This document shows positions 3 through 55,800 of a stretch of 64,000 bases of DNA, piece by piece. The notes beneath the pieces are model-generated. The model was not told the origin of the DNA. It was given only the letters and a program-made list of their open reading frames with translations, and made no database searches. Every line of letters starts with the position of its first letter. Position 1 is the stretch's first letter. Origin of the DNA: Candidatus Saccharimonadota bacterium. GTDB taxonomy: Bacteria; Patescibacteriota; Saccharimonadia; Saccharimonadales; Saccharimonadaceae. Made by a program: the position numbers and the translations under genes. Location: the NCBI GenBank assembly GCA_963927785.1, contig CAWVBZ010000001.1, forward strand, positions 67,783 to 131,782. The letters run 5' to 3'.

Positions 3-482
3 GACAATAAATTGTTTCGCGCTAAAAATTACATTCGCGCGATTGCAACAACGGATTTAAAACAAATAATCAAGCAGCAAAGAATAGAAAACCCGATTAT
101 CGTCTGCGTGCCAAGGTCTAAAGCTGTTTTCTCTGATAAGCAATTATTGTTCCGCAAAGCAATATCGGAAGCTGCCGATAACAATAACACAGTAGCTACA
201 AACGGTGCGGAATACATAAGACGCGTCAGAAACACAAAAACGACACATCTAGCAAATACTAAAAAAGGTGACATGAGCGGGGATGGAGATATGCCATATC
301 CAGGCATCACTAATGATACGTGTCGTCTAATTGGTTCGGTTAGCGGCCGCAATGTAATTTTAGTAGATGATATTTATACGAAAACCGTCAATATTGACGA
401 GGATTGTTGCCAGTTCCTATTAGATAATGGCGCTAAATCTGTTACCCTATATACTATTTGTAAAACAATGATTGGATCGTGA
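3..482 (+). CDS. Phosphoribosyltransferase (PRTase)-domain protein, 5'-truncated by window edge (ShosT/ComF-like C-terminal domain)
   Basis: PRPP-binding-loop-like VILVDDIYT and typical C-terminal LLDNGAKSVTLYTICKT; frame is open to the window start; stop overlaps the start of the next gene. Confidence 0.75.
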   Translation, partial: DNKLFRAKNYIRAIATTDLKQIIKQQRIENPIIVCVPRSKAVFSDKQLLFRKAISEAADNNNTVATNGAEYIRRVRNTKTTHLANTKKGDMSGDGDMPYPGITNDTCRLIGSVSGRNVILVDDIYTKTVNIDEDCCQFLLDNGAKSVTLYTICKTMIGS

Positions 483-1402
483 TGAAATATACAACAGAAT
501 CACTGAATAAATTCGCTAAACTGACTGGCAAGGATGTAGAGCTCTGGGAGAATACCTTTGCTAATTTAGACGACGAATATGGGCTCGTTTCTTACAACGA
601 CGTAGATTACCCTTTCATAATCGACAAGATGGGCGCTCCTATAGAGCCTGGATATACGACCAAGCGTGACGAACATAAAACAAAAGTACCAAACAAAAAA
701 GGCGCACCCCATTATCTACTCTATCGTGGAGATATCTCCTTATTGAATAGAGAAAATTTCAAGAAAAACGTTGCAGTGATCGGATTATTGAACCCAACTG
801 CGGATATAGCTGAACGAGAAAAAACGTTTGTGGTAGAAATTGTTAAAAGAGGCGGAAATATTGTTAGCGGCCTAGCGTTAGGCTGTGATTCGATAGCTCA
901 TAAAACATGCTTGGAGAATAATGGTAAAACAATCGCCGTCCTGCCTTCTAGATTAGCCAATATACTACCAAAAGAAAATATCGATCTGGCAAATGAAATA
1001 GTCGCAAAAGGCGGACTATTAGTAACGGAATACTACAACGAACCGGTTGAAAGATTTGAATCGTCTGCACGTTACATAGAACGAGATAGGCTTCAAGCAT
1101 ATTTTAGCAATTCTATAGTATTAACAGCTAGTTATAGGCATCCAGACAAATACTCCAAGCAATATCCGCAAGACGGTATAAAGAGAGATAGTGGTTCAAG
1201 ACATGCTATGAAAGTTGCAGGAGATATTGGCCGGAAGCGTTATGTACTATTCAATAAGTCTACTGATTCCCTGAATGAAATGTTCGATCTAAACAAAGAT
1301 CTATTGTCAGATAAAAAGAATCCTGCAAAAATACTGACAAGCTCTGAACTTGATAACTTAATGGATGGCGAATTGCCTGGCGCCCTTCCGATTTTTGGGT
1401 AA
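479..1402 (+). CDS. DprA/Smf-like (SLOG) protein
   Basis: Motifs LLYRGDISLL, VAVIG, IVSGLALGCDSIAH, TIAVLP, GGLLVTEY, YIERDRLQA, SGSRHA. Confidence 0.85.
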   Translation: MMKYTTESLNKFAKLTGKDVELWENTFANLDDEYGLVSYNDVDYPFIIDKMGAPIEPGYTTKRDEHKTKVPNKKGAPHYLLYRGDISLLNRENFKKNVAVIGLLNPTADIAEREKTFVVEIVKRGGNIVSGLALGCDSIAHKTCLENNGKTIAVLPSRLANILPKENIDLANEIVAKGGLLVTEYYNEPVERFESSARYIERDRLQAYFSNSIVLTASYRHPDKYSKQYPQDGIKRDSGSRHAMKVAGDIGRKRYVLFNKSTDSLNEMFDLNKDLLSDKKNPAKILTSSELDNLMDGELPGALPIFG

Positions 1403-1977: not shown

Positions 1978-2161
1978 GTGTCTTATACTCTATGGATGAG
2001 TGTAGCCTATGGCTATTGTAAAGGTCAATATACCTAGCTATCTTCCTGTTAAGTGTCTCTACAGTATCCTTTAGGTTTCAGTATCTACCTAGGCATTCAT
2101 CCTGGATTGTCCTATTAAACCTTTCAATATGGGCATTGTCGTTAGGTCGATGTGATCTAGT

Positions 2162-2188
2162 GTGGCGGGCGATGCGTCCGCCACTTTT
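2162..2188 (+). terminator. Intrinsic terminator after the PRTase-DprA-HAD operon
   Basis: GTGGCGG...CCGCCAC stem followed by TTTT. Confidence 0.6.
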
Positions 2189-2253
2189 AACTCTATCTTC
2201 AAACCATTTATCAAACTCTGGTCCATTGTCTGTCTGCACTACACTAAGCTTAA

Positions 2254-2480
2254 AACCAAAGGACTGCTCAGCCTCAATCTGACGAGTCTGGCTTTGATAT
2301 GGCCTCGTATCGCCGAGGCACCACCCTTAATTCATTCAAGAGCGAGGAGTTGACTCAATCGGAACGCAAACAGTTGAAGCGTTTGCGGACTTTGCGTCGC
2401 CGTATGGCGGGGCTGTATTGGCGGTAATCATTATTCTGGTGGTATCGGGTCTGTCGCTATTGAGCCAGTTCACCGGCAAG
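2254..2480 (+). pseudogene. Diverged, frameshifted 5' fragment of an ftsQ-like gene (homologous to about 3435-3658)
   Basis: Translates as NQRTAQPQSDESGFDMASYRRGTTLNSFKSEELTQSERKQLKRLRTLRRRMA, then after a 2-nt insertion AVLAVIIILVVSGLSLLSQFTGK, matching the N-terminus of 3410..4306. Confidence 0.85.
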
Positions 2481-2570
2481 CGAAAAATATCGTTCTAATT
2501 AATTAACTAAATAAACACCTCCAGTCAGAAGTGTAGGCATGCGCTGTCACCAATGACTGGAGTTTTAATA

Positions 2571-2599
2571 TTGACAAATATGGGGCGTTATGTTACGAT
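2571..2599 (+). promoter_or_regulatory. Sigma70 promoter for 2664..3272
   Basis: TTGACA-N17-TACGAT with extended TGn; preceded by a CTCCAGTCA/TGACTGGAG-TTTT hairpin (2519-2566). Confidence 0.7.
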
Positions 2600-2663
2600 G
2601 TTAATGCCCATTTTATTGTGTCTGGCTATGGGCCCAGATAGTTCCTGAAAGGAAGTAGGTAAC

Positions 2664-3272
2664 ATGAAGGTTAATTTCTCGCTGGAAATGAAGCCGAAGG
2701 AGTTCACCGAGCTTATCGAAATCATGGGTATGCCCCCGGTTGTCGGCCAGCTCGACACGCCGAGTATGCTCGATGCATTCATGGATCAGGTCGCCGGGGC
2801 GAACGCCGAAGAGTCGAACCCCTGTGCTATTGCTGATGATGCTCAGAGTGCCACGGACAAAGCGTCCATGGAGCAGGCCGCCGGGGAGAACGACGAAGAG
2901 TCGAGCCCCTGTGCTATTGCTGATGATGCTCAGGGTGCCATGGACAAAGCGTCGGGCGACGCTGAGTCCGCCGAGGAGACGGCCATAAACAACAGGGGCA
3001 AGAAGATTCTTGCTGAGGATTCCGAGGCTGCGACAGCCAGCGGTTGCGATTGCGATCGTGACGCTGCTGATCAGGATGAAGATCCGACTGATGATGGGCC
3101 GGCCCACGATGGACTGTGCATGTCCACTGTCAAGATCTACTATCCCGACACCGGCAAGGATGTCACCATTCACAAGACGTTCGATCCTGTTACGGGTGAA
3201 CTTATCAGCCGTCGGACCGATACGCGGTTCCCGGATGGTAAGACGATCATGAAAGAGAAAGTCTACGCTTAG
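2664..3272 (+). CDS. Acidic low-complexity hypothetical protein with internal duplication
   Basis: 202-aa ORF, SD GAAGGAAG, own promoter, GC-rich. Confidence 0.7.
   Translation: MKVNFSLEMKPKEFTELIEIMGMPPVVGQLDTPSMLDAFMDQVAGANAEESNPCAIADDAQSATDKASMEQAAGENDEESSPCAIADDAQGAMDKASGDAESAEETAINNRGKKILAEDSEAATASGCDCDRDAADQDEDPTDDGPAHDGLCMSTVKIYYPDTGKDVTIHKTFDPVTGELISRRTDTRFPDGKTIMKEKVYA
2781..2954 (+). repeat. Two 87-bp (29-aa) tandem units
   Basis: MDQVAGANAEESNPCAIADDAQSATDKAS / MEQAAGENDEESSPCAIADDAQGAMDKAS. Confidence 0.9.
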
Positions 3273-3409: not shown

Positions 3410-4306
3410 ATGTTTGGTCGGAATAAAGAGCAGAATCAGCGACATCACACGCAGCCGGAGCATGCTGGTGATTTTGATATGGCCTCGTATCGCCGAGGTA
3501 CGACGCTCAATTCATTCAAGAGCAATGACCTGACGCAGACAGAGCGACGCAAATTAAAGCGTCTACGGTCGCTTAGACGACGGATTGCGGCAATACTGGC
3601 CGTTATTATTGTGCTACTGATTTTGGGGCTGTCCCTACTGAGTCAATTTACCGGTCAGCTGACTGGTGCAGTGGCTAGTAATGATGGCGTGGAGCTGAGC
3701 GAGAGTGATGAGCGACGTTATGTTGATATTGTTAACAACTATTTCAAGGATAATTCGGTTGAACGCTTTTCGTTTGCTAGGCGCAACAGTGCGCTATTGC
3801 AATATGTGACGGCCCAGGCGCCCGAGGTGTCGGATGTCAGTTTAAGGTCTTCGGGGATATCTAGTAGTGAAGTGGAGGTGACTGTGCGTCAGCCCGTGGC
3901 GATGTGGATTAACGGTGATAAAACTAGCTACGTGGATAATCAAGGGATAGTTTTTGAGCGAAATTATTATGCTGTACCGGAAATTGCTATTGAGGATGAT
4001 AGCGGCGTTAGTTTGGATGGTAACATGGCCACCTCATCTAGCTTTTTAAGTTTTGTTGGGCGAGTGTCAACTGCCTTGCAGGACAAGGAGGGGCTAAAGG
4101 TGGTGCGAGTTGTTATCCCGCGGGGCAGTGCTAGATATGTAGAGATTTACTTAGATGGGCGCAATTATCCATTTAAGGCTCAGATAACTCGTGATTCGGG
4201 CTCGCAGGCACACGATATTGCTGTTATGGCACGATATGTTGATAGCCACGGCATCCAGCCACAGTACATTGACTGTCGGGTCGAGGGCAAGGCGTATTGG
4301 AAATAG
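3410..4306 (+). CDS. ftsQ: FtsQ/DivIB-like cell division protein
   Basis: Basic cytoplasmic N-terminus, single TM helix, POTRA-like segment ending VTVRQPVAMW, C-terminal YIDCR similar to FtsQ YIDLR. Confidence 0.6.
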   Translation: MFGRNKEQNQRHHTQPEHAGDFDMASYRRGTTLNSFKSNDLTQTERRKLKRLRSLRRRIAAILAVIIVLLILGLSLLSQFTGQLTGAVASNDGVELSESDERRYVDIVNNYFKDNSVERFSFARRNSALLQYVTAQAPEVSDVSLRSSGISSSEVEVTVRQPVAMWINGDKTSYVDNQGIVFERNYYAVPEIAIEDDSGVSLDGNMATSSSFLSFVGRVSTALQDKEGLKVVRVVIPRGSARYVEIYLDGRNYPFKAQITRDSGSQAHDIAVMARYVDSHGIQPQYIDCRVEGKAYWK

Positions 4307-4662: not shown

Positions 4663-4691
4663 TTGACTATCAGCTAAAATAGTGTTATTGT
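4663..4691 (+). promoter_or_regulatory. Sigma70 promoter for 4765..6285
   Basis: TTGACT-N17-TATTGT with extended TGn. Confidence 0.65.
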
Positions 4692-4764
4692 AAGCAAGAT
4701 GTTACCTGGCGATGGTGGGGCGCCAGTCTATATAGTACATTAAAAAATCCTAGAGAAGGGAAAC

Positions 4765-6285
4765 ATGGTGAGCAATTACCGTAAGCTATTGGTGAAAATG
4801 CTCCAGGGCGATGACGCCGAGTGGGCATTGGGCCAGATGAGCAACATGGCGATCTGGGACAATCTAGACACTATTCAGTCAAGCCATGCCAGCCTGTCGT
4901 CGGATAGGCTGCAGGCAATCATGGACAGCTTGCCACTGGGCAAGGTGAAGGCGAGCGACATTGCCGCAAAGCTTGACTTGCTGAAGGCAGCTGGTGTTGA
5001 CGATGACGCTATTGTGGCTATCTGCGCAAAGCGTAACCTTGACCTTGCGACAGCTGACCAGCTGCTGCGTAGGGAGGTGGCCGACAAGCCGACGCTATTG
5101 AAGCTGCTGTGTAGTGGCAGCTTCAACCCGAGTATTGACGGCCAAGCCATGCTTGACGAGTGGGGCGTAGGTATCAACGATCTTCTGCTGGCACAGGAGA
5201 GCCTTGTTGACACTCAGGCTATGTTCGACTGGTATGAGTCTCGCGATGCCGATATGGCATTGCTGCTTGACAAGTCGACGCCAGAGTTGCGGCGGGTTGC
5301 TAAGGCCAGGGAGGATAACGATGACACCACGGAGTCGTCTGATGATGAAAGCCAGTCCGTGCGCTGCCAGCTGGGTCCGCGTGAGCGTAAGCTCAAGGCT
5401 CTGAAGGCAACCAAGCAGGCTATCGACCATGGCAGTCTCGAGCTTGCTCGGATCTGTTGTGGCGATCTGGTTGATAGGTATGGCTTTAGCGGCACACACA
5501 TTACCCAGATCGTGCAGACGATCGACAGTGATATCAGTCTCGATACGGCTCAATACTTGATTGAGCACTGTGGGGCTGACCCAAGCGTAGTGGCAGAGCA
5601 CATGTCGCCTCGCGACGTGATGCGCTCCTATGCTTGGCTGAGGCGTAATGGTGTCAACATTGATGCTGCCGCCGCCTACGACCGCCTCGACCTTGTCGGC
5701 AAGGTTGAGTGTGCTGGTTGGGCGTATGCCAACGGCGTCAAGATTGACATTAACGGCGACCTACAAGAGCTGTGCGATCATCGTCCGACCTTCGAAATGA
5801 AGGGGGATGATGGTAAGGAAGTGCTTGTTCCTTACTGCGTCCGTCGCCCGGATATCTTGCTGCGCCTACCCTGCATCGACCGTCGCATCATGCTCGGTGT
5901 GCTGAGTGAGGACGATATCCTCACTTACAGCCACGAGCTGATGTGCTGCTGTCGTAAGCGCCGCGGCCAGGGCAGTGGTGCCTATGCCAGCTACGCTGAC
6001 ATCGTCAACGCTCTGTCGAGCTCGTTTATCGCCGAGCATCTCGTCGATATCATCGAACTTGCTTGCAATAAGGGCGACATGGCGCTGGTCATGGCCAAAC
6101 TGACTGATGCTCAGCTAAACAAGTCGATATCATATCTGCTCCGAGCCAATGCGCCCGTTGAGCGAGTGGCAAGCCGTATCTGGCCAAAGACGGCTATCCG
6201 CAAGTATGTCAATCTCAAACGTGCTGGCTTCAGCGACAAAGGCCTCTGGCAGATGATGAACGGACAACCGGTCAAGTCTGCTTAA
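4765..6285 (+). CDS. Hypothetical alpha-helical repeat protein (506 aa)
   Basis: Long ORF with SD and promoter; recurring LxxxG(A/V)xx(D) helical units; no catalytic motif recognised. Confidence 0.75.
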   Translation: MVSNYRKLLVKMLQGDDAEWALGQMSNMAIWDNLDTIQSSHASLSSDRLQAIMDSLPLGKVKASDIAAKLDLLKAAGVDDDAIVAICAKRNLDLATADQLLRREVADKPTLLKLLCSGSFNPSIDGQAMLDEWGVGINDLLLAQESLVDTQAMFDWYESRDADMALLLDKSTPELRRVAKAREDNDDTTESSDDESQSVRCQLGPRERKLKALKATKQAIDHGSLELARICCGDLVDRYGFSGTHITQIVQTIDSDISLDTAQYLIEHCGADPSVVAEHMSPRDVMRSYAWLRRNGVNIDAAAAYDRLDLVGKVECAGWAYANGVKIDINGDLQELCDHRPTFEMKGDDGKEVLVPYCVRRPDILLRLPCIDRRIMLGVLSEDDILTYSHELMCCCRKRRGQGSGAYASYADIVNALSSSFIAEHLVDIIELACNKGDMALVMAKLTDAQLNKSISYLLRANAPVERVASRIWPKTAIRKYVNLKRAGFSDKGLWQMMNGQPVKSA

Positions 6286-6378
6286 ACATAGCTTTACTTT
6301 AACCCACCACTCAACTAACGAGGTCGCAGGGTGCCACTACGGGCCCTGCGACCATGCTGGTTCCTTCTCTGGGTAAAT

Positions 6379-6436
6379 CTCTACTTCTATAACTGTGCGG
6401 TTATACTGATGAGCTCCAAAAGGACGAAAAGTAGAG
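6379..6436 (+). ncRNA. Type III hammerhead ribozyme
   Basis: Stem III CTCTACT/AGTAGAG; UUC cleavage triplet (cut after C6387); stem I TATAAC-(TGTGCG)-GTTATA; core CTGATGA; stem II G(C)TCC-AAAA-GGAC; core GAAA. Confidence 0.85.
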
Positions 6437-6441
6437 CAATA

Positions 6442-6464
6442 CCCGCAGGTGCGGGCTACTTTTT
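6442..6464 (+). terminator. Terminator immediately after the ribozyme
   Basis: CCCGC-AGGT-GCGGG followed by CTACTTTTT. Confidence 0.55.
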
Positions 6465-7872
6465 ATATGCGCAACAAAGAGGGGGAGAGGGATAGGAGGG
6501 CGTATTATAAAATAATAATATTACAATATTGTCAAATAGATTTGTCAAACATGAATGAGGCGGGTGAGTATATTTCACAATAAAATAATATTTTGTCAAA
6601 TATGTCAAATAAAATTGTGGAAAACTGCTTGACAAGATTTTTGCTGACGTCATGGCGTCACTGTCGATTTGATGATCGTTGAGAGTGATGACTATGATGT
6701 CTAGCAGCAGCTCATTGGACCTGCTAAAAGCTGAATTTTTGTAAAATTTCGGCTTTGCCGGTGGAGTCTCAAAAATAATTAAATATTAATTTAGGTGGCC
6801 GATTGTTAAACGGAGCTTGCCCCGTCCGACGGCAATTATTTTTCAAATTATTTTGGCACTCAAATAGGCTGAATGACAGAACGTCCAGAATCGGCAGTTT
6901 TTGGTGGGCTTCATCTGTAAAATAGTCTGTAGCGTCGTAAAAGGTATATTGTGCGACGTCAAGAATTTGACGGAGCCACACCATTCTTTATTACTCTCTA
7001 ACTGCTTAAAATCCAACTGATTTTTGTTGAGCGGTTTTTATTTAAATGTTGAAAAATTCTGGCTTACTCATACCCCCGCCATCGGCGATGTTTGGCGGTC
7101 ATGATTGATATTTGAATGGCGTTCGGTCGTTAATACGCTGGATGTCCCTTGATGGCCCCTCCACCGCTCTGACATCAGATATATAAAATTGTGCGACATT
7201 AAATAATTATTAAAAAGATGAGTATTTATACGTCTAGAAATAGTGCACTTCTGGCTAATATGTTGCTATATTGGCCGTCAGGCTAATTTTTAAAGATGCT
7301 AGCATTTGTCTGGCTGGTTCGTGGCCAGCTCGAACATGCTGAGTCAGCTAGAACTAGTTTGTGTACGACGCTTAAGCGTTTCCAGGCGTGACGATTGTCG
7401 ATCAAATAGCTGGTGACTATCAATATTTAGCGTCTAAATAAAACTGCCAGAATAAATGTAATTGGATATACAAAGTAATTAAATGATCGCTGACGCGGTG
7501 ACTGAAGCGTAGCAGAGTTGTGGCTGCGGTAACGCAATTTTTGACGTAGACCGGATGCGACGATAGGTCCACTCTTTTGACGTCGCAAAATATTAAGCTG
7601 CATTATAGTTGTGAGCTAGCTGGCTTGCTTTTGACGATATTGTTCGACGGCTGTCGGCGACTCTTCCTGCTCTATTCAAATTAAAACACCCACCAACATG
7701 CTTGATGTCGGCGGGTGTAACTATGTGCGGGCTGCTGTCTTCCTTCTCTACTTTCTGGCCTTGCCAATGATTGACAATGCGCGAATAAACACATTCAGTA
7801 GGTCAAGGAATATGCCACGGGCGTTGCTAATGGCGCTTAGCGCCGTCGGTTTGACTACTATTTTGCTTATGC

Positions 7873-12456: not shown

Positions 12457-15339
12457 TTATAAGAATAGTCTTCCCTGCCCGGTTGAGGTGGTTTCAACAT
12501 GCTTTAATTCAAAATAGTTGAGAATATCGTGCATGGTGGCATTGCGATTCTTCCAATCGTAGAACGTTTCATCCCCGACAATAACATAATGCCAGGTATA
12601 GTTCTGGCGCTTGTCGGCTGGTAGTGCATTGATGCGGTTTACCCAATGGATAGCAGCTTTCTTCTTCCTTAAGACGTCAACTTGTTGGAGTTGATTTTGT
12701 GCTTTGGTTTCTACCATGTAAATATCATTGACTATGCGGACAAAGAAGTCAGGGATATAGCTTGATGGTAGGCCGTCATTACGAACATAGCGAAGTCTGA
12801 CAAAGGTATGCTTACTCTCGATAACTTTTGCTACGGCATCTACTTCGCCGTCATGATCGGCGAACAGCAAAAAGTCGCGTTCGAAGCCGCCTTTGTTTTT
12901 TGGATAAGGTGTCAGTTCATAGATGTTTTTAGCCAAGTTAACGGAATAGTTTTCGCGAACAAGTAGACTGTCAATACTGGATAATGGCGTAAAATGGACG
13001 CTGACATTTCCGGTGGTTTCCATATGTTCTTGTGCGCCGACGATTAGTCCACTAATCTGTTTTACTATATGGTTAATGACGCCTGATATAAGCAGTACAT
13101 TATACGCCAGTTTGTCGTTTTGCGGATTAATCGTTTGGCCAAATAAGTAGTTGCGAATGTAGTTGTCAACTATACCAGTAACTTGAGATAAGTTGATAGC
13201 TAGTGCGGGGTATCGTTGTTGCTTGTTGTCTGGCTGATACAAACTATTGACGATACGATTGACGAGTCTGGCTAGATAGTCATTGTAGCTAGTTGATTGG
13301 AATATGTTGTTGCTCACTACAAAATCGCCAATCGTGGTATGTGATGTTGCTTCGCGAGTAATCCATCGGTCGTTGGTTGGGGCTATCTTTTCTAATTCAT
13401 CTAATGCCATTGGATATTGACGTAGTGAGCTAATGTTCGCTCGAATATCTGGCATGGTTTGTTCCCCTTCGCTAATAATTGTTGGAAAGTAGAAATCGTA
13501 TTGTTGATAATTATCCTTTAAACTAACCCTCTTAAAGTCGTTGATGATATCCTCATTCTCTTTGCTGGTGTCAGCAAAATCGGCAACTGTGCCATCGGCA
13601 ATAAGCTCGTCGTAGAATTGACGAAAGGCTGGATGCTCCACGATGCTCAGAATGTCGAAGAAACTTTGCGGTTGTTTGTGCTCCATAAAGATTCTCCGAC
13701 GGTCGTCAGCTTTCATTTGGTCGATCTCTGGGTCGCCTCGCCACATTAACCTTAGACCACGACCAATAGTCTGTTCCAATAGAATTCCTGACTGGGTTGA
13801 GCGCAACGGTACAATAACGCAAATATTATTAACATCAAAGCCCTCGCGAAGCATTAAGACGGATATGACAACTTTGGGGCTGTCGTGTTGGTCTAGCGAC
13901 GATAGCTTTAATTTAATATTATTCCACTCCTCTTCGCCGACTTCGCCCTTTTTATTGCTGTGAATTTCCAGAATGTCATCATCAGATAAGCCTTCTTGGA
14001 TTAAAAAGTCGTGCACATGGCCAACAACTTCAGTCTCCTCGCACATAATCATCATCTTGGGTGATTTATTGGGCTGTCCCAACTGGGCAAAACTATCTTC
14101 CAGGAGTTTGAGCTTAGCCAATCCGGCTCTTAGCATGGTGCGTTGCCCATCAGATATGTCAATAATATGTCCGTTTTCGCGAATTGCACGAAAATCCAGT
14201 TCCTCAGTGTTGAGCTCCTTGCGCTCGTCGAGAGCTATAGTTTTTACTAGACCTGACTGGATGGCGGTTCTTAAGTTAAAATCGATGACGATATGTGGAA
14301 AGTAAATTTTGCCTTTACCCTGCTCCATGTATGGCGTGGCTGAGAAGTCCACTTGCATGTATTTGCTTGGCACTTTTCCGTCGGCTATATAACGCAAACT
14401 CTTTTGCCACTCTACCTCGCCAACTCGCTCGCCTCGCTTCTGGGTGCCGTGAATGTGGTGTGCCTCGTCATTAATAACCATAAGATTATCTAGATCGTGC
14501 AAATATTCTAGAGCTTGCTTATTGCTAGATCCGCCGTCCAAAACGTCTAGACTATTACCAGCGGTTGTTCCTGGTCTAACTGGTAGACTATAGCTAGAGA
14601 TCTCACCTGGTCTGTCGCTCTCCTCGTCTTTGTCAACCATTAACAAATGGTAGTTAGTAATAGCCAACAAGCCATCGCCAGTTACTTTATTGCCGATCTC
14701 CTCCTTTCGAACAACGCATGAGTTAAGAAATCCAAAAACTTCTTGGCGATACTCTTCTGGGATAAACAGCTCCTGATTTTTGTACAAATCACCAGTATTA
14801 ATATCTCTAGTAGTACCATCGTCGCTGAGCTTGCCTTTGAAGGCATCCAGCAGTCGTTCGTAGACGATGAGCCCGGGTGCTACTAACAGAAAATTGCGAG
14901 TGTAGTTACCCGGCTCGTTGTGCCTAGCATTAAGATATTGCCATAGTAGTAGGGCTTCTAATACCCATGTTTTGCCTGTCCCAGTGGCCATTTTGACGGC
15001 ATATTTGGGGTGGTTGTATATTTCGTCGCTAAAACGTTCTAGATTAATCTGTCCCTTTGCAACCAATAAATCCGGGCTGATATGTTCATAAATATCGCGA
15101 ACGTTCTGGCAATGCATGACATCGTGCAGATAAATGATATTTTTGATTGCTTGGCACTGCCCGGCGTGAAAGTTGACTTGGCGTTGCTCGCAAAAGCTGT
15201 TGCCAAACCAGTATGTCAACAAATTGCGAGTTGTTGGCGTAACGCTGGCCAGAAAGCTGCCCTCTTCCCAGGCGTCGTTAACACGATTTGTAATCAGTTT
15301 AGCTAGTTCTAATGGCGGATATTGATTGAATGAACTCAT
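12457..15339 (-). CDS. res: Type III restriction enzyme Res subunit (SF2 helicase plus PD-(D/E)xK nuclease)
   Basis: KMATGTGKT (Walker A), [22 protein letters not shown]-terminal YIPDF...VETK; overlaps the mod stop. Confidence 0.9.
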
Positions 15340-17308
15340 AGATTTACCTCTCGGATTACTTCGCTCTCTTGGCCGAAGACGTCAACAGCTCGAACAGCGA
15401 TGCGTCGCTTTTGTTTATGCGTAACTGGCAAGGTGGTTTTAGCGGCTACTCTTAGCGGGTCATTGTCACCATTACCGGTATTGCCACGATAATCTTGCCA
15501 GACACTACGGAAGGTGGCGCCATCATAATCTGGGTCTATACTCCAATATTCAATTAGGGCTAGTGGATCGTGGCCGATAACTTCATTAACTTTAGCTCGG
15601 TTTTTGTCGTCTAGTGGTAGGCTGTCGCCGCTAATAATAACGTAGTTGTCCAGCTCAACTGTAAGTCTGTCCGGCTGACCGGGCTCGCCCAGTGTTATTT
15701 CGGGTTGCTTAATAGTCAGGTATTGTAGGCTACTAAAACGAATCGGCGTTGTGATGGTACCGTCGGATTGAACGGCCACTTGACTGCTGAGCTTTTTAAA
15801 GCTGTTTTTACTCTTAATCTGATCTAACAAATCTGGCGGAATAACCAACAGATCTAGCTGACCATTGATTATTTGATTTTTGTAAATTTCCATAATCTCA
15901 CTGATGCGACTATCGAAGTTCCAGCCCAAAACAACTACCTTACGATAACCGCCCAGGGTATTCTCGCGAGCGTCGATAGCTTGGTCTATGATGTACTTGT
16001 TGACTACTTGTGACGGACTAGCTACCATCACTAAAGTTTTATTACCTGGCAATGTCCCTAAATTACGTCGCGGACATTCCTCAACTGATAGCGGTAACGC
16101 TCCATATAATTTTAGAACGATCTCATTTAGATCACCGATTCGATAGCGACTGCCCATGGTACTGGTTAGCTGTTCGCGCTGGTAATCGCCAATGGACTGA
16201 TACAGAAATGGTTGAGCATTATTGTCGATTAGACGTTTGCGCATAATCATGGTGGCAGGTTTGCCAATATCACTAGTAATCCATCGACGTCCTAGCTTCT
16301 CGGCAACAGCTGCAGTTGTGCCAGACCCGCCAAAGAAGTCAGCGACAATTGACCCTTCATTTGATGACGCTTCGATGATGCGCTCGAGCAGTTTTTCTGG
16401 TTTTTGGGTGGCATATCCTACTACCTCTGGGTTCCAGCCAGTAACCGTTGGGATATCTGTCCACCAATCAGTTATTGGCGTCCCTCTACTGAGGTCTAGA
16501 TCTTTTGCTTGCCCGCTAGCGTTATTTGTGCTACTTTTGCCAACGCTTTGTGTATTTTCCTTGTATGGACGATATGAAATGTGAAATACGTATTCTGATG
16601 ATTTTGCATATCTGAGTAGAATATCGTGCTTTCTCGGATAATCGGTCCTGGGAGTAGCGCCCCCATTGTATGTCCACACGATTTCGTTTCTTAATTTATC
16701 TTTCCCGAAAATGTCGTCCAGAATGACTCGCACATATGAGTCAACGTGCCAATCGACGTGAACATATAGCGTCCCCTGTTCGCTCAATAATTCTCGCATT
16801 AATACTAGTCGTGGATACATGTAGCGTAAATAGGCTAGTGTGCCACGAACCTCGACTTTGTTGTCGCCATGGCCTAGCTCCCCGCTCCAGGTGTCGGCAT
16901 AGGCAAACTGTTCCAAAATGGTAGGCTTCTGCTCGATATCCGCGCCTGGCAGGACAATTTTGGTTCGATAATCAGCCTTACTATCATATGGTGGATCAAT
17001 GTAAATTAAGTCAATCCTGCCACGCATACTGGGTAGGCTGCTAGCTTCATCGCCGGCCAGTAATGCTTGCATGGCCAATAAATTATCGCCGTAAATTAGG
17101 CGATTATGCCAATCTAAGCTGTGGGGGGGGTATTTTCAGTATTGGCCCTAATTGCTAACTGAGCCTGCTCTGAATTTGGATAAACCAACTCGTTTGTCTG
17201 TAGTGATATCCGCGAGCTGTTACTCAGCCCGTCCAGAATGCGTTTAGCCTCCCTGCGACCTTCTTTAACTACTTCTGGTAGCATATCAATAATACTTGTG
17301 CCTGCCAT
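15336..17308 (-). pseudogene. mod: Type III adenine methyltransferase Mod, split by a 1-nt frameshift in a C8 tract (OFF phase as sequenced)
   Basis: DPPY and DFFGGSGTT motifs; N-terminal ORF 17114..17308 has SD AAGGAG and joins the [16 protein letters not shown] frame if the tract is C9 or C6; C9 gives 657 aa. Confidence 0.85.
17123..17130 (-). repeat. Homopolymer C8 (G8 on +) simple sequence repeat at the mod frameshift
   Basis: GGGGGGGG at 17123-17130, exactly at the frame junction. Confidence 0.9.
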
Positions 17309-49323: not shown

Positions 49324-49528
49324 AAGCTGAATATATTGCGATTAGGTTGACTAGGCGGGTGAACCGTGTTCATTAATGAAGTTGACTGCAAGGCGACTCC
49401 TATGAAAACGTTCAATACGACAATCAAATGTTCCCTGACACTTTAGTTAGTGCCTGCGCTTATATTGTACAATGCTAAAATCCCAATGTGGCAGTGTATA
49501 AATTAATCACATGGCTCATGTGTGAGGA

Positions 49529-50883
49529 GTTCAGCTATACGATTATTTGATACGACTATCAAACTTCCGTTTGTTTAAGAACCTTCGTGTCTTCGTTCAG
49601 CTATACGATTATTTGATACGACTATCAAACTGTGCATTGTTTACCCCGAATCAGCTCACCGTTCAGCTATACGATTATTTGATACGACTATCAAACGCCT
49701 GAGGAAGCCAAAAAACAGCATCATCGGTTCAGATATACGATTATTTGATACGACTATCAAACCGGGCCAATAAAGGTGAGTTTGATGTAGAGTTCAGCTA
49801 TACGATTATTTGATACGACTATCAAACGTTTCTTCCATTATTATCTCCTTTCTGTCTGTTCAGCTATACGATTATTTGATACGACTATCAAACGCATGGC
49901 TGCCGACATCAAGGCGTCTGCAAGTTCAGCTATACGATTATTTGATACGACTATCAAACGGTGGCATATTGGTGGCCGGTGGTATTGCGGTTCAGCTATA
50001 CGATTATTTGATACGACTATCAAACGCTCATCGATGTGTTCGTCGTTAGGTTGGTGTTCAGCTATACGATTATTTGATACGACTATCAAACGTATCCCAT
50101 GGGTTGCCACTGGTTGGCGTAGTTCAGCTATACGATTATTTGATACGACTATCAAACAATCAGCATGTTGCGTTTTTCTGGGCTGTAGTTCAGCTATACG
50201 ATTATTTGATACGACTATCAAACTGCTTGCTGGCTTATCTCTCCAGCTACCAGGTTCAGCTATACGATTATTTGATACGACTATCAAACGCACCCGTCGT
50301 TGATTGGGCGAACATATCCGTTCAGCTATACGATTATTTGATACGACTATCAAACCCGTAGCAATAACGTAAAGTAAAAAATACATGTTCAGCTATACGA
50401 TTATTTGATACGACTATCAAACCGGTGGTATGCTCTCTATCCTATCTATCAGTTCAGCTATACGATTATTTGATACGACTATCAAACGGCGCCAGCCCTT
50501 AGCATAGCGTCCTGTAGGTTCAGCTATACGATTATTTGATACGACTATCAAACACGATTAAGGAAGCAAGGGAGATCGTCGATGTTCAGCTATACGATTA
50601 TTTGATACGACTATCAAACGTCATGACTAGAGTATATGACGGATGGGTCTGTTCAGCTATACGATTATTTGATACGACTATCAAACGATTGCGGATAGTA
50701 TACCGCAAACGATTGAGTTCAGCTATACGATTATTTGATACGACTATCAAACGGTATGCCGGGCACATTCCTGTTTCGCGCAGTTCAGCTATACGATTAT
50801 TTGATACGACTATCAAACCGAATAACCGCCACCGTCCAATTTAATCGGTTCAGCTATACGATTATTTGATACGACTATCAAAC
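49529..50883 (-). CRISPR. Type II-A CRISPR array: 21 repeats (GTTTGATAGTCGTATCAAATAATCGTATAGCTGAAC), 20 spacers of 29-31 nt
   Basis: 36-nt repeats with about 66-nt period; one variant repeat at 49727 (C>A at 49733); orientation from GTTT start, leader and cas genes. Confidence 0.98.
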
Positions 50884-52835: not shown

Positions 52836-55800
52836 CTATATTTTTACTTCACCTGGCTGAACAGTTTTTAGATCGATTACTTTTTCGTATAAGCCGGCGG
52901 TTGACTGGAGAACGAGCTTAATGCTGCTGTAATTTGATATATTGCTTGCAGCCGTGCACCCACCTAATTGTTGTGCTCTTGGGACGAATTTAGATAAATC
53001 GCCGTGACTGGCATTGCAACCGACTATATCAAGAATAGTCTGTATTGATTTGCATTGATCTTCTAATGACAACTGACTGAATTCATTTGTATAGCTAGAG
53101 AGCTCGTAAATTCTGCTGCCAAACTTTGGCGCATCTTTGAATATTTTTAATCGGCTGGTCAATGTTTGGAATAAGTCAATATTTCCATCCTTAGCTATTT
53201 CATCTTTTTTGGTAATATCGTATTTCTTGTCGTTAAGTTTAGTTGCCGTTGAGCATACTCTCTTTAGATATGGAATGCTGTCGATCGGTAGATAAAGTTG
53301 TTTTGCTGGATAGAATGAAAGTTGATCGCCTGTTCTACCAGTCAAATGAACTGGGAAGCCGTTGACGACCAGTTTGGACATGTAATCAATGCGTGGAATT
53401 ATTACCTTGGCTCCGGCATAGGTTCTGGCTATATATTGGTTGACATGGCTTTCCTCTAGGATTGGAATGGAGACGAGCTTGCGTGTTCCATTAGGCAGCT
53501 CGATAAGCGTGAAGTAGGCACCCATAGCGCTGTTGTAGCCACCATACTTAGAGGTGTCTTGCAGTCGGCTATCTTTTTTGCGTGGGATATAGTTATCGGC
53601 TTTTCGAACTAATTGAGCATCCATCAGCCCCCCGCCCTTGCTACTTAGCCGGTGATGCATGCGTGTCCACACGACATCATTGCGTTTCATAGTGTTGCAA
53701 ACTGTCTTCAGACTTTCGGCGAAGTTCCATGCCTTAACGATTGGGTATTTAGTTGTATTGCCATCTTTCTTGGTGTAAATTTCGCTATCGCGGAAAATTA
53801 GCTCAGTCCTAATGGTGTAGTTTTGTCTCCCCTCGTCGTCTCTCTCCTTGATCCATCGGTACGGATTGTCAGTAAAGGTGGAATTAATGACATTGCCGGC
53901 AACAATGTTCAGATAGGCGTCCTTGGCGTGGTGGGTGTCGTTTAGTTCACGAACTTTGATGAACTCGGGGTGAATAGGGTTGCTGTTATATCCATAGTAT
54001 TTGCGAATGCCGGAGGCCAGGTTGGCTTTGACGGTAATGACCTTGGTATCTTTTAGATGTTCCTGCAGTAATTCACCAATTGCCTTGGTCGACTGCCCCG
54101 TTTCCACTAACTGTCTGGAAATAAATCCTGCTAATTCGTCAGGCGTTAACGGTTGTGTCCTCGTCAGGCGCTCGTACTTTTCCTTGGTGATTAAACCGCT
54201 GCGGTACCAATAACTCCACACCTTGTGCATGCGATCCTGAATGTCGGAGCTGATGGGATACGTATTGGTTTTCTCACGGTTCTTCTCTGCCTTTACTAAA
54301 ACGAGATTTCTGGTAATGCTGTCGTCCTTAGTCTTGGAACGTGGGTAAATATGATCAATATCGTATAGCTGAGTGTTGTTAATCTCCTCGATGTTGATGC
54401 GTTCGCCAGTGTAAGCGCACTTGCCCATTTGCTGGAAGTAAAGGAATAGCTTCTTTGATTGCAGGTCGCGATCGTCTTTGCTTTCGAGTGCGTCAATAAG
54501 ATCGTTGATCTCCTTATCCTCGCCTTTTTTCATTGCATGATACTTATCTAACAAGTCTTTACGGCGAGCGAGCTTAACCTTCTTCTGGCCCTTTTCTTCC
54601 CCGCGTGTCACCTCGATGAAAATTTTAGCTGGATCATGCTCCGTAACTTGGCGAATTTCATTGACGATCTTGATGGCTTGCCAGACGGTTCGCTTGACGG
54701 CTGGTGAGCAATACAGGTTTTGGACTTGATCGTAGGTTAATTCTTCGTTTTCATTGTCGGCGTGAGCTTTATTGACTTTGTCTAGCTCGTCCTTAAAGCC
54801 GAACTCGCCACCCAGCAGCTCCATTAAGTTGTGCGGAGTCTCCCATAGTGCATCCATAATTGTCATTGATTGGCCATCAACGTCGGTACGAACGCCATAT
54901 AGAAAGTCGGCGCTAAATTGTCCCCAGTCACTGTACTTTAACTTGGACAAACGATTGGCTTGCTCGTCTGTGCAATTTAACTCTTCTTTAACTTTAGTTG
55001 CTAGCATCTTGGGCTCGTTATTCAGAATCGTGATAAGTTCAGCGATCTTGTCTAGCTGTTGGACTGAGTACTGTTTATTGTAATCGGGGCCTAGGATGCG
55101 ATAGAAATCCATGTGCGTAGATAGCTTTGGCAGAGTCTTGGCTTCGGCGCTGCCACCTAGCTCGTCGGTCTTGCTAATCATGTCGACTGAGCGCATGTAG
55201 GCCTCAAGTTTATGCAGAGTAACGTTGCCGCCCAACTCGCCGCCTAAGTAGGCTTGATTGTAGATCTGTTGCTTGAGATCGTTGTCAATGCGATGACCAT
55301 TGATTTTTAAATTGTTCAGCTCGTTTAAAACCATGTATTTTTGATAGGATAGCGAACATTTCGGCAATGTTGATGCACCGACTACATAGGTGCATTCGTT
55401 TTTCATTCGTTCGATGAATCTGCTAGCTCGCTGACCAAGGTCTACTAGCTCTGTATAATTCCACGGGTAAACAACTTGGTTAATAGCCTCGCCCCAAGCG
55501 AACTTATTGTTGTTGTCGGTTGCTGATGCCATTGGGCCACAATAGTATGGAATCCTGAATGAGTGAATCGCCTCAATCTTCTTGGCTTTAGTGTTATAGG
55601 ACGGACTCTCATTGGGGTTTTCAATAGCAAAGCTTGGATAATCCTGGCACAGCTTTCGTAGGATCAATGCAAGTTCATTATGGTGTATTTGCTGAGGAAT
55701 TGTTCCCTTTGCATAGCCGCGTTGCTTGGGAAGTAGTTTGCGCCCTTTCGCTCTTTGCAATAAGTCGCCGGTAATGCCATTCTTCTCAAATAACCTTTCT

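What the first reader, a model, noticed from the sequence alone, without database searches (positions are those of the whole stretch)
6379..6464. Type III hammerhead ribozyme hidden downstream of an orphan gene
All core nucleotides are present and ordered: stem III CTCTACT/AGTAGAG, UUC triplet, stem I TATAAC/GTTATA closed by loop UGUGCG (resembling the UGUGC loop I of satellite-RNA hammerheads that docks on loop II), CUGAUGA, stem II with one bulged C and an AAAA loop, then GAAA. It lies about 95 nt after the stop of 4765..6285, behind a 10-bp hairpin lacking a U-tract (GGTCGCAGGG/CCCTGCGACC) and just before a terminator. Read-through transcripts would self-cleave after C6387, giving the mRNA a cyclic-phosphate end and releasing an RNA of about 75 nt. 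No retroelement is visible nearby.
Basis: partly seen in the sequence, partly recalled or inferred. Interest (0 to 1): 0.8.

Follow-up and report, generated by a model that had tools for sequence, protein, structure and literature searches.

The report
Hammerhead ribozyme behind a Saccharibacteria gene

Summary
Confirmed. Window 6379-6436 (+) has every element of a type III hammerhead. Stem III has 8 bp, C17 is C6387, stem I has 6 bp with loop UGUGCG, then CUGAUGA, a stem II with one bulged C and an AAAA loop, then GAAA.

Rfam Hammerhead_3 scores it 32.7 bits. That is below the curated cut-off of 48.5, but E is 0.004 for the whole window.

It belongs to a large subclass that I recovered from phage contigs. 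That subclass has a 6-bp stem I with a UGWGYG loop and a 4-bp stem II with an RAAA loop. Its stems covary heavily: they are 98-99.7% paired in 97 sequences.

The same ribozyme recurs in Candidatus Saccharibacteria at three kinds of site. Each time it lies behind a gene for an LLAAGA-type repeat protein and a strong hairpin without a U-tract. Stem III shows compensatory changes between copies.

The most likely action is cleavage in cis at 6387|6388. This would leave the mRNA with a hairpin-protected end carrying a cyclic phosphate.

There is no RNA evidence for this locus. A sister copy is mutated (A14G) or deleted in close strains, so a vestigial state cannot be excluded.

It is a new member of a known kind, of modest interest.

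The parts
4663..4691 (+). Promoter-like site (TTGACT, 17 nt, TATTGT, with TG) in front of the 506-aa gene. Presumed start of the transcript that runs through the ribozyme.
   Evidence: consensus scan only; not evidence of function
4765..6285 (+). Gene for a 506-aa protein with degenerate 'L..L.AAG.D...LV..L.P..I' repeats. The ribozyme lies in its 3' UTR.
   Evidence: No Pfam, PHROG, NCBIfam or PADLOC hit.
6291..6300 (+). GCTTTACTTT, which could pair with 6428-6437 and compete with stem III. This is the predicted MFE conformer of the whole 3' UTR.
   Evidence: -64.1 against -59.1 kcal/mol with the hammerhead fold enforced. Not seen for the other copies.
6322..6353 (+). Stable hairpin (10-11 bp, GGTCGCAGGG/CCCTGCGACC) with no U-tract, 25 nt upstream of the ribozyme.
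   Evidence: (I7). Analogous hairpins precede the other Saccharibacteria copies and the phage copies.
6379..6386 (+). Stem III, 5' strand (CTCTACTT; U6386 = U16.1).
   Evidence: Compensatory changes between copies.
6387..6387 (+). C17. The predicted scissile bond is between C6387 and U6388.
   Evidence: Position relative to the core. Cleavage itself was not tested.
6388..6405 (+). Stem I (TATAAC/GTTATA) closed by hexaloop UGUGCG.
   Evidence: Family-wide, the 6 stem I pairs are 99.7% paired and all covary. Loop consensus UGWGYG.
6406..6412 (+). Core C3-A9 (CUGAUGA).
6413..6425 (+). Stem II: G10.1-C11.1, bulged C6414, three more pairs, loop AAAA.
   Evidence: The same 13-nt form (GNUCCAAAAGGAC) occurs in L073, L087, L137, L138, L219-L232.
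6426..6436 (+). Core G12 A13 A14, then stem III 3' strand (A15.1 = A6429; AAGTAGAG).
6442..6466 (+). Intrinsic-terminator-like hairpin CCCGC-AGGT-GCGGG followed by CTACTTTTTAT.
2255..2298 (+). Remnant of the DNA that follows the second ribozyme copy (HHR2) in sister strains. HHR2 itself is missing here.
   Evidence: window 2273-2315 matches L001 1027-1069
2078..2239 (-). Remnant of a DDE (rve-type) transposase, at the place where sister strains have the repeat-protein gene and HHR2.
   Evidence: TDNGPEF...RPNDNAHIERFNRTIQDE. The motif was recognised from my own knowledge and not scored against a library.

Best explanation
Window 6379-6436 (+) is a genuine, probably active, type III hammerhead ribozyme. 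It belongs to a subclass that is abundant in phage contigs and also present in Candidatus Saccharibacteria chromosomes.

Proposed mechanism. It lies in the 3' UTR of the 506-aa repeat-protein gene. Transcripts that start at or upstream of the gene (promoter-like site 4663-4691) and pass the hairpin 6322-6353 fold into the three-way junction. Loop I (UGUGCG) and loop II (AAAA) dock. The RNA then cuts itself between C6387 and U6388 by attack of the 2'-OH of C6387.

The mRNA keeps a 2',3'-cyclic phosphate end 34 nt behind a stable hairpin. A fragment of about 78 nt with a 5'-OH end, made of the ribozyme body plus the terminator hairpin, is released.

The likely purpose is to define the 3' end of the upstream message and uncouple it from whatever follows. 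At the other Saccharibacteria sites what follows is a Mur ligase or FtsQ-like gene, and in phages it is the next cistron. Here no cistron follows, only a terminator, so at this particular site the ribozyme merely trims the 3' UTR and may be partly vestigial.

Shown: the motif, its family membership, covariation, and the recurring layout of gene, hairpin and ribozyme.

Inferred: transcription, cleavage in vivo, and the effect on mRNA stability.
For: Motif.
- The complete core and the three helices are present.
- Hammerhead_3 E=1.9e-5 locally and 0.0041 for the window.
- The core alone is expected 0.01 times per window.
- No simulated hit of similar quality appeared in 1800 windows.

Family.
- A scan of viral contigs that fixed only loop I and the core returned at least 120 loci, and nearly all fold as type III hammerheads.
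- On 97 distinct sequences, stem I is 99.7% paired, stem II 98.2% and inner stem III 99.2%.
- The covariation score is 0.796 against 0.197 for shuffles and 0.09-0.12 for slid partners.
- Loops are conserved even when not preselected.

Copies in Saccharibacteria.
- HHR1 is intact in all 12 related loci.
- The only changes are C6398U, at the Y position of the loop consensus, and A6435G, which turns a U-A pair into U-G.
- A second copy (HHR2) and copies in other species share only the ribozyme itself, with unrelated flanks.
- Five stem III pairs are changed on both sides.

Association.
- The upstream gene is a repeat protein at every site.
- Four homologues chosen by protein similarity alone gave 5 loci, and all 5 have hairpin plus hammerhead before a Mur ligase gene.

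Hairpin.
- The 60 nt upstream of the phage copies fold far better than background: -17.3 against -9.6 kcal/mol, p=2e-24. The downstream side is unstructured at -4.8.

Literature.
- Bacterial hammerheads flanking genes, with processing of long transcripts proposed (PMC3088659; PMC6765202).
Against: - No RNA data cover this locus, so transcription of the + strand and cleavage are untested.
- The Rfam score is below the gathering cut-off.
- In this window the ribozyme is followed by a terminator rather than a gene, so uncoupling two cistrons cannot be its role here.
- The sister copy HHR2 carries GAAA to GAGA (A14G) in six close strains. By my own knowledge of core mutagenesis this should abolish activity. 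HHR2 is deleted in the window, L009 and L012. This lineage therefore tolerates loss of such ribozymes.
- The MFE of the whole 3' UTR prefers an alternative helix (6291-6300 with 6428-6437) that sequesters A14 and A15.1.
- Divergence within the species is too low to show purifying selection on HHR1: 1-2 changes in 58 nt, against about 6% in the gene.
Confidence: 0.75

Rival explanations
1. Vestigial passenger. This is a real hammerhead sequence, inherited with the repeat-protein gene or acquired from a phage. It may still cleave, but it has no selected role at this site, where the downstream gene it once separated has been lost.
For: - HHR2 is mutated at A14 in six strains and deleted in three.
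- HHR1 is followed directly by a terminator and about 1.5 kb without a convincing + strand gene.
- The locus lies in a variable island between Shosta and R-M systems, with an IS remnant.
- More distant Saccharibacteria lack the ribozyme at the syntenic spacer.
Against: - The core, all stems and both loops of HHR1 are intact in all 12 loci.
- Both observed substitutions keep the structure.
- Similarity between HHR1, HHR2 and the copies in other species is confined to the ribozyme while the flanks have diverged completely. That pattern is expected under constraint.
Confidence: 0.17
2. Boundary of an exchangeable cassette or of a circular RNA. Two ribozymes in the same direction (HHR2 and HHR1, about 5.6 kb apart in L001 and 4.1 kb in L010) cut out an RNA that is ligated into a circle. 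Alternatively, the shared 58 nt serve as a recombination site for swapping DNA segments.
For: - Two direct copies flank a block of 3-5 genes in L001 and L010-L016.
- Three rearrangements have an edge at or in a ribozyme: the 185-nt insertion right after HHR1 in L002, the roughly 600-nt insertion with a partial second copy in L138 and L230, and a contig that starts inside the ribozyme in L137.
- Perreault et al. considered circular or spliced products.
Against: - No reverse transcriptase or ligase gene is nearby.
- In most strains that have both copies, HHR2 is core-mutated.
- The window has a single copy.
- The 'goes back' joint in DNA contigs is explained by HHR2 followed by the FtsQ-like repeat, not by a circle.
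- Perreault et al. found no such products.
Confidence: 0.04
3. Generator of a small RNA. The point of cleavage is to release the roughly 78-nt 3' fragment (6388 to about 6465, with a 5'-OH end and structured by the ribozyme body and terminator hairpin) as a stable RNA with a role of its own.
For: The layout of ribozyme plus terminator gives a compact, fully structured product.
Against: What follows the ribozyme is not conserved between sites. It is a terminator here, a 185-nt insertion in L002, and coding genes elsewhere.
Confidence: 0.02
4. Chance match with no ribozyme activity.
For: The score is below Rfam's gathering cut-off. The folding z-score of the isolated element is only -1.48.
Against:: the E-values, the fit to the family, the conserved loops, the compensatory changes, and recurrence at unrelated sites.
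Confidence: 0.02

Closest known systems
Hammerhead ribozyme, type III (Rfam RF00008, clan CL00010)
   Same: It has all invariant core nucleotides, three helices with stem III open, loop-closed stems I and II, and a pyrimidine at the cleavage site. It aligns end to end with the model, positions 1-54.
   Different: It scores 32.7 bits, below the cut-off of 48.5. Loop I is 5 nt longer than the model's, stem II is shorter and has a bulge, and the stems are A/U-rich. The phage relatives score 27-51 bits, and only 1 of 11 passes.
Intergenic hammerheads of phages and prophages that flank genes (Perreault et al. 2011, PMC3088659; de la Pena reviews, PMC6155905)
   Same: It is intergenic, co-directional with the flanking genes, and multi-copy near small or unannotated genes. 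Neighbouring phage genes such as an anti-restriction protein and an HNH endonuclease match earlier reports. Its proposed role is transcript processing.
   Different: The host is a Candidatus Saccharibacteria chromosome, with no phage genes recognised around it. The copies are tied to one repeat-protein gene family next to cell-wall genes (Mur ligase, FtsQ-like). The spacers are longer: 93 nt from the stop codon, against a median of 29 nt in phage contigs.
Satellite-RNA type III hammerheads with loop-loop docking (for example sTRSV; loop sequences recalled from memory)
   Same: It has a UGUGC-type loop I and a purine-A-rich tetraloop II, which in sTRSV form the tertiary contact needed for fast cleavage at low Mg2+ (general statement in PMC6155905).
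   Different: It is encoded in DNA, is not part of a circular replicon, and no rolling-circle context is present. Loop II is AAAA rather than GUGA. The docking itself was not tested here.
Retrozymes (plant and animal non-autonomous retroelements bounded by type III hammerheads; PMC4918200)
   Same: In sister strains, two direct type III hammerheads bound a segment.
   Different: The segment is 4-5.6 kb of protein-coding genes, not 0.6-1 kb of non-coding RNA. There are no LTR-like repeats beyond the ribozyme, no target-site duplications and no reverse transcriptase, and the host is bacterial.
Self-cleaving ribozymes in bacterial 3' UTRs (twister reporters; summary in PMC6765202)
   Same: The ribozyme lies downstream of a stop codon, where cleavage changes the 3' end of the message.
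   Different: It is a different ribozyme class. Here a protective hairpin lies upstream of the cut, so the expected effect could be stabilising or neutral rather than silencing.

Membership tests
Hammerhead ribozyme (any type) | Core C3 U4 G5 A6 N7 G8 A9 between stems I and II | tested here: met
   CUGAUGA at 6406-6412
Hammerhead ribozyme (any type) | Core G12 A13 A14 followed by an A15.1-U16.1 pair | tested here: met
   GAA 6426-6428; A6429 pairs with U6386
Hammerhead ribozyme (any type) | Cleavage-site nucleotide 17 is not G | tested here: met
   C6387
Hammerhead ribozyme (any type) | Standard pairs next to the core in all three stems (1.1-2.1, 10.1-11.1, 15.1-16.1) | tested here: met
   U6388-A6405, G6413-C6425, A6429-U6386. 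This criterion is the one used by Perreault et al..
Hammerhead ribozyme (any type) | Helices supported by covariation | tested here: met
   Family of 97 sequences: 16 of 18 pairs are changed on both sides, and the score is 0.796 against 0.197 for shuffles. The Saccharibacteria set has 5 stem III pairs changed on both sides, while stems I and II are invariant and so uninformative.
Hammerhead ribozyme (any type) | Mg2+-dependent self-cleavage giving 2',3'-cyclic phosphate and 5'-OH ends | not testable with these tools
   No RNA reads for this locus. Metatranscriptome contigs on the related locus L138 stop 26 nt before the predicted site, which is only suggestive.
Type III topology | Stems I and II closed by loops; the 5' and 3' ends leave through stem III | tested here: met
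   (the MFE of the isolated element is exactly this fold)
Rfam RF00008 Hammerhead_3 | Bit score at or above the curated gathering score (48.5) | tested here: not met
   32.7 bits. Most bona fide-looking phage relatives also fall below it, so the threshold is conservative for this subclass.
Phage-type HHR3 subclass (defined here) | 6-bp stem I closed by a U-G[U/A]G[U/C]-G hexaloop | tested here: met
   UAUAAC-UGUGCG-GUUAUA. 108 of 133 type III examples selected without reference to loop I have this loop.
Phage-type HHR3 subclass (defined here) | 4-bp stem II closed by an RAAA tetraloop | tested here: met
   The AAAA loop is present. Stem II has 4 pairs plus one bulged nucleotide at 10.2, as in L073, L087, L137, L138, L219-L232.
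Phage-type HHR3 subclass (defined here) | Stable hairpin directly upstream and an unstructured leader of the next gene downstream | tested here: inconclusive
   The hairpin is present but lies 25 nt away rather than abutting the ribozyme. Downstream is a terminator, not a gene leader.
Retrozyme | Pair of hammerheads inside direct repeats that bound a short non-coding unit spread by reverse transcription | tested here: not met
   There is a single copy in the window. In sister strains the bounded unit is 4-5.6 kb of genes, the flanks are unrelated and no reverse transcriptase is present.

The most novel reading that the evidence does not exclude
In Saccharibacteria, 'hairpin + CU-rich spacer + hammerhead' is a conserved device that makes the 3' end of the mRNA of one family of LLAAGA-type repeat-protein genes. 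These genes sit next to cell-wall and division genes (Mur ligase, FtsQ-like). The device replaces an intrinsic terminator while letting RNA polymerase run on into the next gene, so the two messages are made from one promoter but decay independently. The same hairpin-ribozyme pairing in phages would then be a general way of building stable 3' ends inside operons by ribozyme action. That would give bacterial hammerheads a defined function for the first time.
Probability: 0.3. Interest if true: 0.55.

Novelty: new member of a known kind. Interest (0 to 1): 0.3.

Why it matters
Thousands of hammerheads are known in bacteria and phages, yet reviews still call their role an open question (PMC6155905, PMC6765202).

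This example adds a host group, the ultrasmall episymbiotic Saccharibacteria, for which my one literature search listed no paper that mentions a hammerhead.

It also adds two regularities that suggest a testable function:
- a strong hairpin without a U-tract sits just upstream of the cut, in phages and Saccharibacteria alike;
- in Saccharibacteria there is a fixed association with one repeat-protein gene family beside cell-wall genes.

By itself the window's copy is an ordinary instance and has no known phenotype.

Tried and rejected
- The Rfam gathering scan of the window found nothing. The hit appears only with E-value thresholds.
- Megablast of 4700-7700 against phage records and E. coli genomes found no match.
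- Pfam, PHROGs, NCBIfam and PADLOC on the genes around the ribozyme gave no family for the 506-, 298-, 202-, 361-, 551-, 316- and 144-aa products.
- The exact stem II plus core pattern was absent from viral contigs.
- More distant relatives (L003, L004, L006) were searched by Rfam, by my descriptor and by eye in the syntenic spacer. None has a ribozyme there; they have a promoter-like TGTATAAT instead.
- Circular or tandem DNA as an explanation of the 6434->3473 joint was rejected. The joint comes from HHR2 followed, 48 nt later, by the FtsQ-like 5' repeat.
- Homology of the 506-aa protein with the 417-aa protein at the syntenic place in L003 is not supported (E=0.076).
- RNA evidence could not be obtained. 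The only 'rna' run for the window is of unknown type and stored as contigs. The gut metatranscriptomes that hold the L138 species do not hold the window's locus. X23-X25, labelled RNA-Seq, behave like DNA, with contigs of 50-160 kb.
- A fuzzy-regex search timed out and was replaced by blastn-short.
- Within-species divergence is too small to test selection.

Full report
**1. The observation**

The sequence is as described.
- CTCTACTT (6379-6386) pairs with AAGTAGAG (6429-6436) as an 8-bp stem III whose innermost pair is U6386-A6429.
- C6387 is position 17.
- TATAAC/GTTATA (6388-6393 and 6400-6405) forms stem I, closed by TGTGCG.
- CTGATGA follows at 6406-6412.
- GCTCC-AAAA-GGAC (6413-6425) forms stem II with G6413-C6425, a bulged C6414 and three more pairs.
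- GAA is at 6426-6428.
- The hairpin GGTCGCAGGG/CCCTGCGACC is at 6322-6353.
- A terminator-like hairpin with a T-run is at 6442-6466.

The isolated 66 nt fold into exactly this three-way junction. The folding energy is not unusual for the composition (z = -1.48).

**2. Is it more than chance?**

- Rfam's default scan reports nothing.
- With E-value thresholds, Hammerhead_3 aligns end to end at 32.7 bits against a gathering score of 48.5. E is 1.9e-5 on 301 nt and 0.0041 on the whole window against all 4227 families.
- The core pattern CTGATGAG-N8-14-CGAAA alone is expected 0.01 times per window.
- A deliberately loose three-stem descriptor hits about 1.6% of simulated windows, but none of those 29 hits approaches the real one in number of pairs.

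Chance is therefore very unlikely. Comparative evidence was still needed, because the score is below the curated threshold.

**3. What the window is**

It is a bacterial chromosome. It encodes SecA, seryl-tRNA synthetase, SHMT, Cas9 with a CRISPR array, and a type III R-M system. It has no close match among phage or E. coli records. The same DNA occurs in chicken-gut and air metagenomes.

Two results point to Candidatus Saccharibacteria:
- a homologue of the neighbouring 298-aa gene is named that way by its source;
- the two GTDB genomes that carry the same ribozyme are titled Candidatus Saccharibacteria.

The ribozyme locus lies between a Shosta defence pair (12-1402) and the R-M system. Sister strains have other R-M genes on the upstream side, so the region is variable.

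**4. Close relatives**

The 506-aa protein has only three clusters in 5.8 billion proteins, all at least 91% identical. In 12 related loci the ribozyme (HHR1) is intact. Only two changes occur:
- C6398U in loop I;
- A6435G, which turns a U-A pair into U-G.

Divergence is too low to test selection statistically: 1-2 changes in 58 nt, against about 6% in the gene. In L002, similarity to the window stops right after the ribozyme, where a 185-nt insertion precedes the terminator.

**5. A second copy**

Contigs laid on the window showed the ribozyme in other contexts. A descriptor search found HHR2 in L001 (944-1003), and blastn found it in L010-L016.

HHR1 and HHR2 share stems I and II, both loops and the core. 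Two stem III pairs are changed on both sides (U-A to C-G). The flanks are unrelated, so only the ribozyme is shared.

- In L010-L016, HHR2 reads GAGA instead of GAAA. This A14G change should inactivate it; that statement rests on my knowledge of core mutagenesis and was not tested here.
- In the window, L009 and L012, HHR2 is gone, replaced by a transposase remnant.
- HHR2 is followed 48 nt later by the start of an FtsQ-like reading frame. This explains the apparent 'goes back' joint 6434->3473. There is no circle.

**6. The family**

I scanned viral contigs with a pattern that fixed only loop I, the 6-nt length of stem I, CUGAUGAG and CGAAA. Nearly all fold as type III hammerheads.

On 97 distinct sequences, including those from Saccharibacteria:

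| Measure | Value |
|---|---|
| Stem I paired | 99.7% |
| Stem II paired | 98.2% |
| Inner four pairs of stem III paired | 99.2% |
| Pairs changed on both sides | 16 of 18 |
| Covariation score, observed | 0.796 |
| Covariation score, shuffles | 0.197 |
| Covariation score, slid partners | 0.09-0.12 |

The stems were not part of the search pattern, so this is not circular.

A second scan fixed loop II but not loop I. Of 133 type III hits, 108 have the hexaloop U-G[U/A]G[U/C]-G on a 6-bp stem I.

The window's element fits this subclass. Its only peculiarities are a one-nucleotide bulge in stem II, shared with L073, L087 and all the Saccharibacteria and soil examples, and a longer stem III. Rfam scores the phage members at 27-51 bits, mostly below threshold as well.

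**7. Context in phages**

- The ribozymes lie in tight gaps between co-directional ORFs, a median of 29 nt after a stop codon and 23 nt before the next start.
- The 60 nt upstream fold much better than random 60-mers from the same contigs: -17.3 against -9.6 kcal/mol, p = 2e-24. GC hairpins abut the ribozyme there.
- The downstream 60 nt are unstructured, at -4.8 kcal/mol.
- Neighbouring genes include an HNH endonuclease and an anti-restriction protein.

This agrees with Perreault et al. 2011, who described hammerheads flanking genes in prophages and proposed processing of long transcripts.

**8. Context in Saccharibacteria**

The gene upstream of HHR2 (258 aa in L001, 303 aa in L010) and the gene upstream of the ribozyme in L138 (241 aa) belong to one family. 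Its members are built of repeats of about 30 aa, of the form LDKLLAAGAxIDxxxLVxxLEPWxIA. The 506-aa protein is a weak relative (E = 0.003).

I then took four homologues of the repeat protein chosen by protein similarity alone and fetched their contigs. All five loci obtained (L228-L232) have a strong 16-bp hairpin, a CU-rich spacer and the ribozyme between the repeat gene and a Mur ligase gene. The ribozyme ends about 20 nt before that gene's ATG.

Across 11 distinct Saccharibacteria copies, stems I and II never vary and five stem III pairs change on both sides.

More distant relatives (L003, L004, L006) have the repeat gene followed by the FtsQ-like gene with a promoter-like spacer and no ribozyme. 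The ribozyme is therefore specific to certain lineages.

**9. Mechanism proposed**

*Shown:*
- a complete hammerhead of a covarying family;
- the recurring order gene, hairpin, ribozyme;
- a variable downstream partner: a terminator here, a small FtsQ-like ORF at HHR2, a Mur ligase elsewhere.

*Inferred:*
- transcripts from the promoter-like site 4663-4691 run through the hairpin, which has no U-tract;
- the ribozyme folds and cuts at 6387|6388;
- the upstream message ends in a 2',3'-cyclic phosphate 34 nt after a protective hairpin;
- at sites with a downstream gene, the downstream message starts with a 5'-OH and the folded ribozyme body.

In this window the downstream product would be only about 78 nt, made of the ribozyme body plus the terminator. 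Here the ribozyme merely trims the 3' UTR.

A predicted competing helix (6291-6300 with 6428-6437) is 5 kcal/mol more stable than the hammerhead-compatible fold. It is not seen at the other sites, so its significance is unknown.

**10. RNA evidence**

None exists for the window's locus.

For the related L138 locus, contigs from two metatranscriptome studies cover the repeat gene, pass the hairpin, and both end at +3143. That is 26 nt before the predicted cut. No RNA contig covers the ribozyme body.

This is compatible with a 3' end near the ribozyme. However, contigs cannot show ends or absence reliably.

**11. Verdict**

The element is a new member of a known kind.

It is not surprising to a specialist. 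Its modest added value lies in three points:
- the host group;
- the hairpin-ribozyme regularity;
- the fixed gene association.

Together these suggest a testable 3'-end-forming role.

The decay of the sister copy in close strains, and the lack of a downstream cistron here, leave a real chance of about one in six that this particular copy is vestigial.

Noticed in passing
window 12-1402 (+): Two overlapping genes match ShosT (PRTase-like) and ShosA (DprA-like) of the Shosta anti-phage system. With the type III R-M genes at 12457-17078 (-), they frame the ribozyme locus as a defence island.
   Followed up: partly
window 49527-50883 and 52836-57014 (-): CRISPR-like array of about 20 units with a 66-nt period, next to a full-length Cas9 (REC, HNH, RuvC and PI domains).
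   Followed up: no
window 2078-2239 (-) and 2299-2427 (+): A DDE (rve-type) transposase remnant sits next to a truncated duplicate of the 5' end of the FtsQ-like gene (2293-2410 is 74% identical to 3473-3590). Sister strains have a repeat-protein gene and a second hammerhead at this place.
   Followed up: yes
window 6507-6618 (+): Two 39-nt direct repeats carry three TTGTCAAA motifs in an AT-rich stretch just after the terminator. The motif occurs 13 times in the window against 2.8 expected. It may be an operator or a promoter region for the small minus-strand ORFs.
   Followed up: partly
window 6291-6300 with 6428-6437: A predicted 10-bp helix between the start of the 3' UTR and the 3' strand of stem III, including A14 and A15.1. 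It is favoured by 5 kcal/mol over the hammerhead-compatible fold. It is absent at the HHR2 and L138 sites.
   Followed up: partly
L002 4724-4906: A 185-nt insertion with nested hairpins lies exactly between the hammerhead and the terminator. It is absent from the window and L001.
   Followed up: partly
L138 (minus strand, about 2420-3120) and L230 1000-1720: An insertion of about 600 nt carries a minus-strand ORF (CdiA_C hit in L230). On one side is a complete hammerhead, and on the other, right before the Mur ligase gene, is a second copy that lacks the 5' strand of stem III and half of stem-loop I.
   Followed up: partly
L010, L011, L013-L016, about 5781-5840: The second hammerhead copy has GAGA in place of GAAA (A14G) in six strains. 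It is otherwise intact, so it is a recently disabled ribozyme.
   Followed up: yes
L138 +3143: Contigs from two independent gut metatranscriptome studies (X30, X33) end at the same base. It lies 26 nt upstream of the predicted cleavage site and 26 nt past the hairpin. No explanation was established.
   Followed up: partly
window 6354-6378; L001 905-943; L228-L232; L220-L222: The spacer between the upstream hairpin and the ribozyme is pyrimidine-rich (TTCC and CTTTC motifs) in most members of the bulged-stem-II subclass.
   Followed up: no
window 2775-2948 (+): A tandem 87-nt duplication (91% identical) lies inside the gene for a 202-aa acidic protein (2664-3272).
   Followed up: no
L086 615-668 and 1725-1779; L017, L031, L034, L043, L085: Several phage contigs carry two hammerheads 0.4-1.6 kb apart in the same direction, as described for prophages in 2011.
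   Followed up: no
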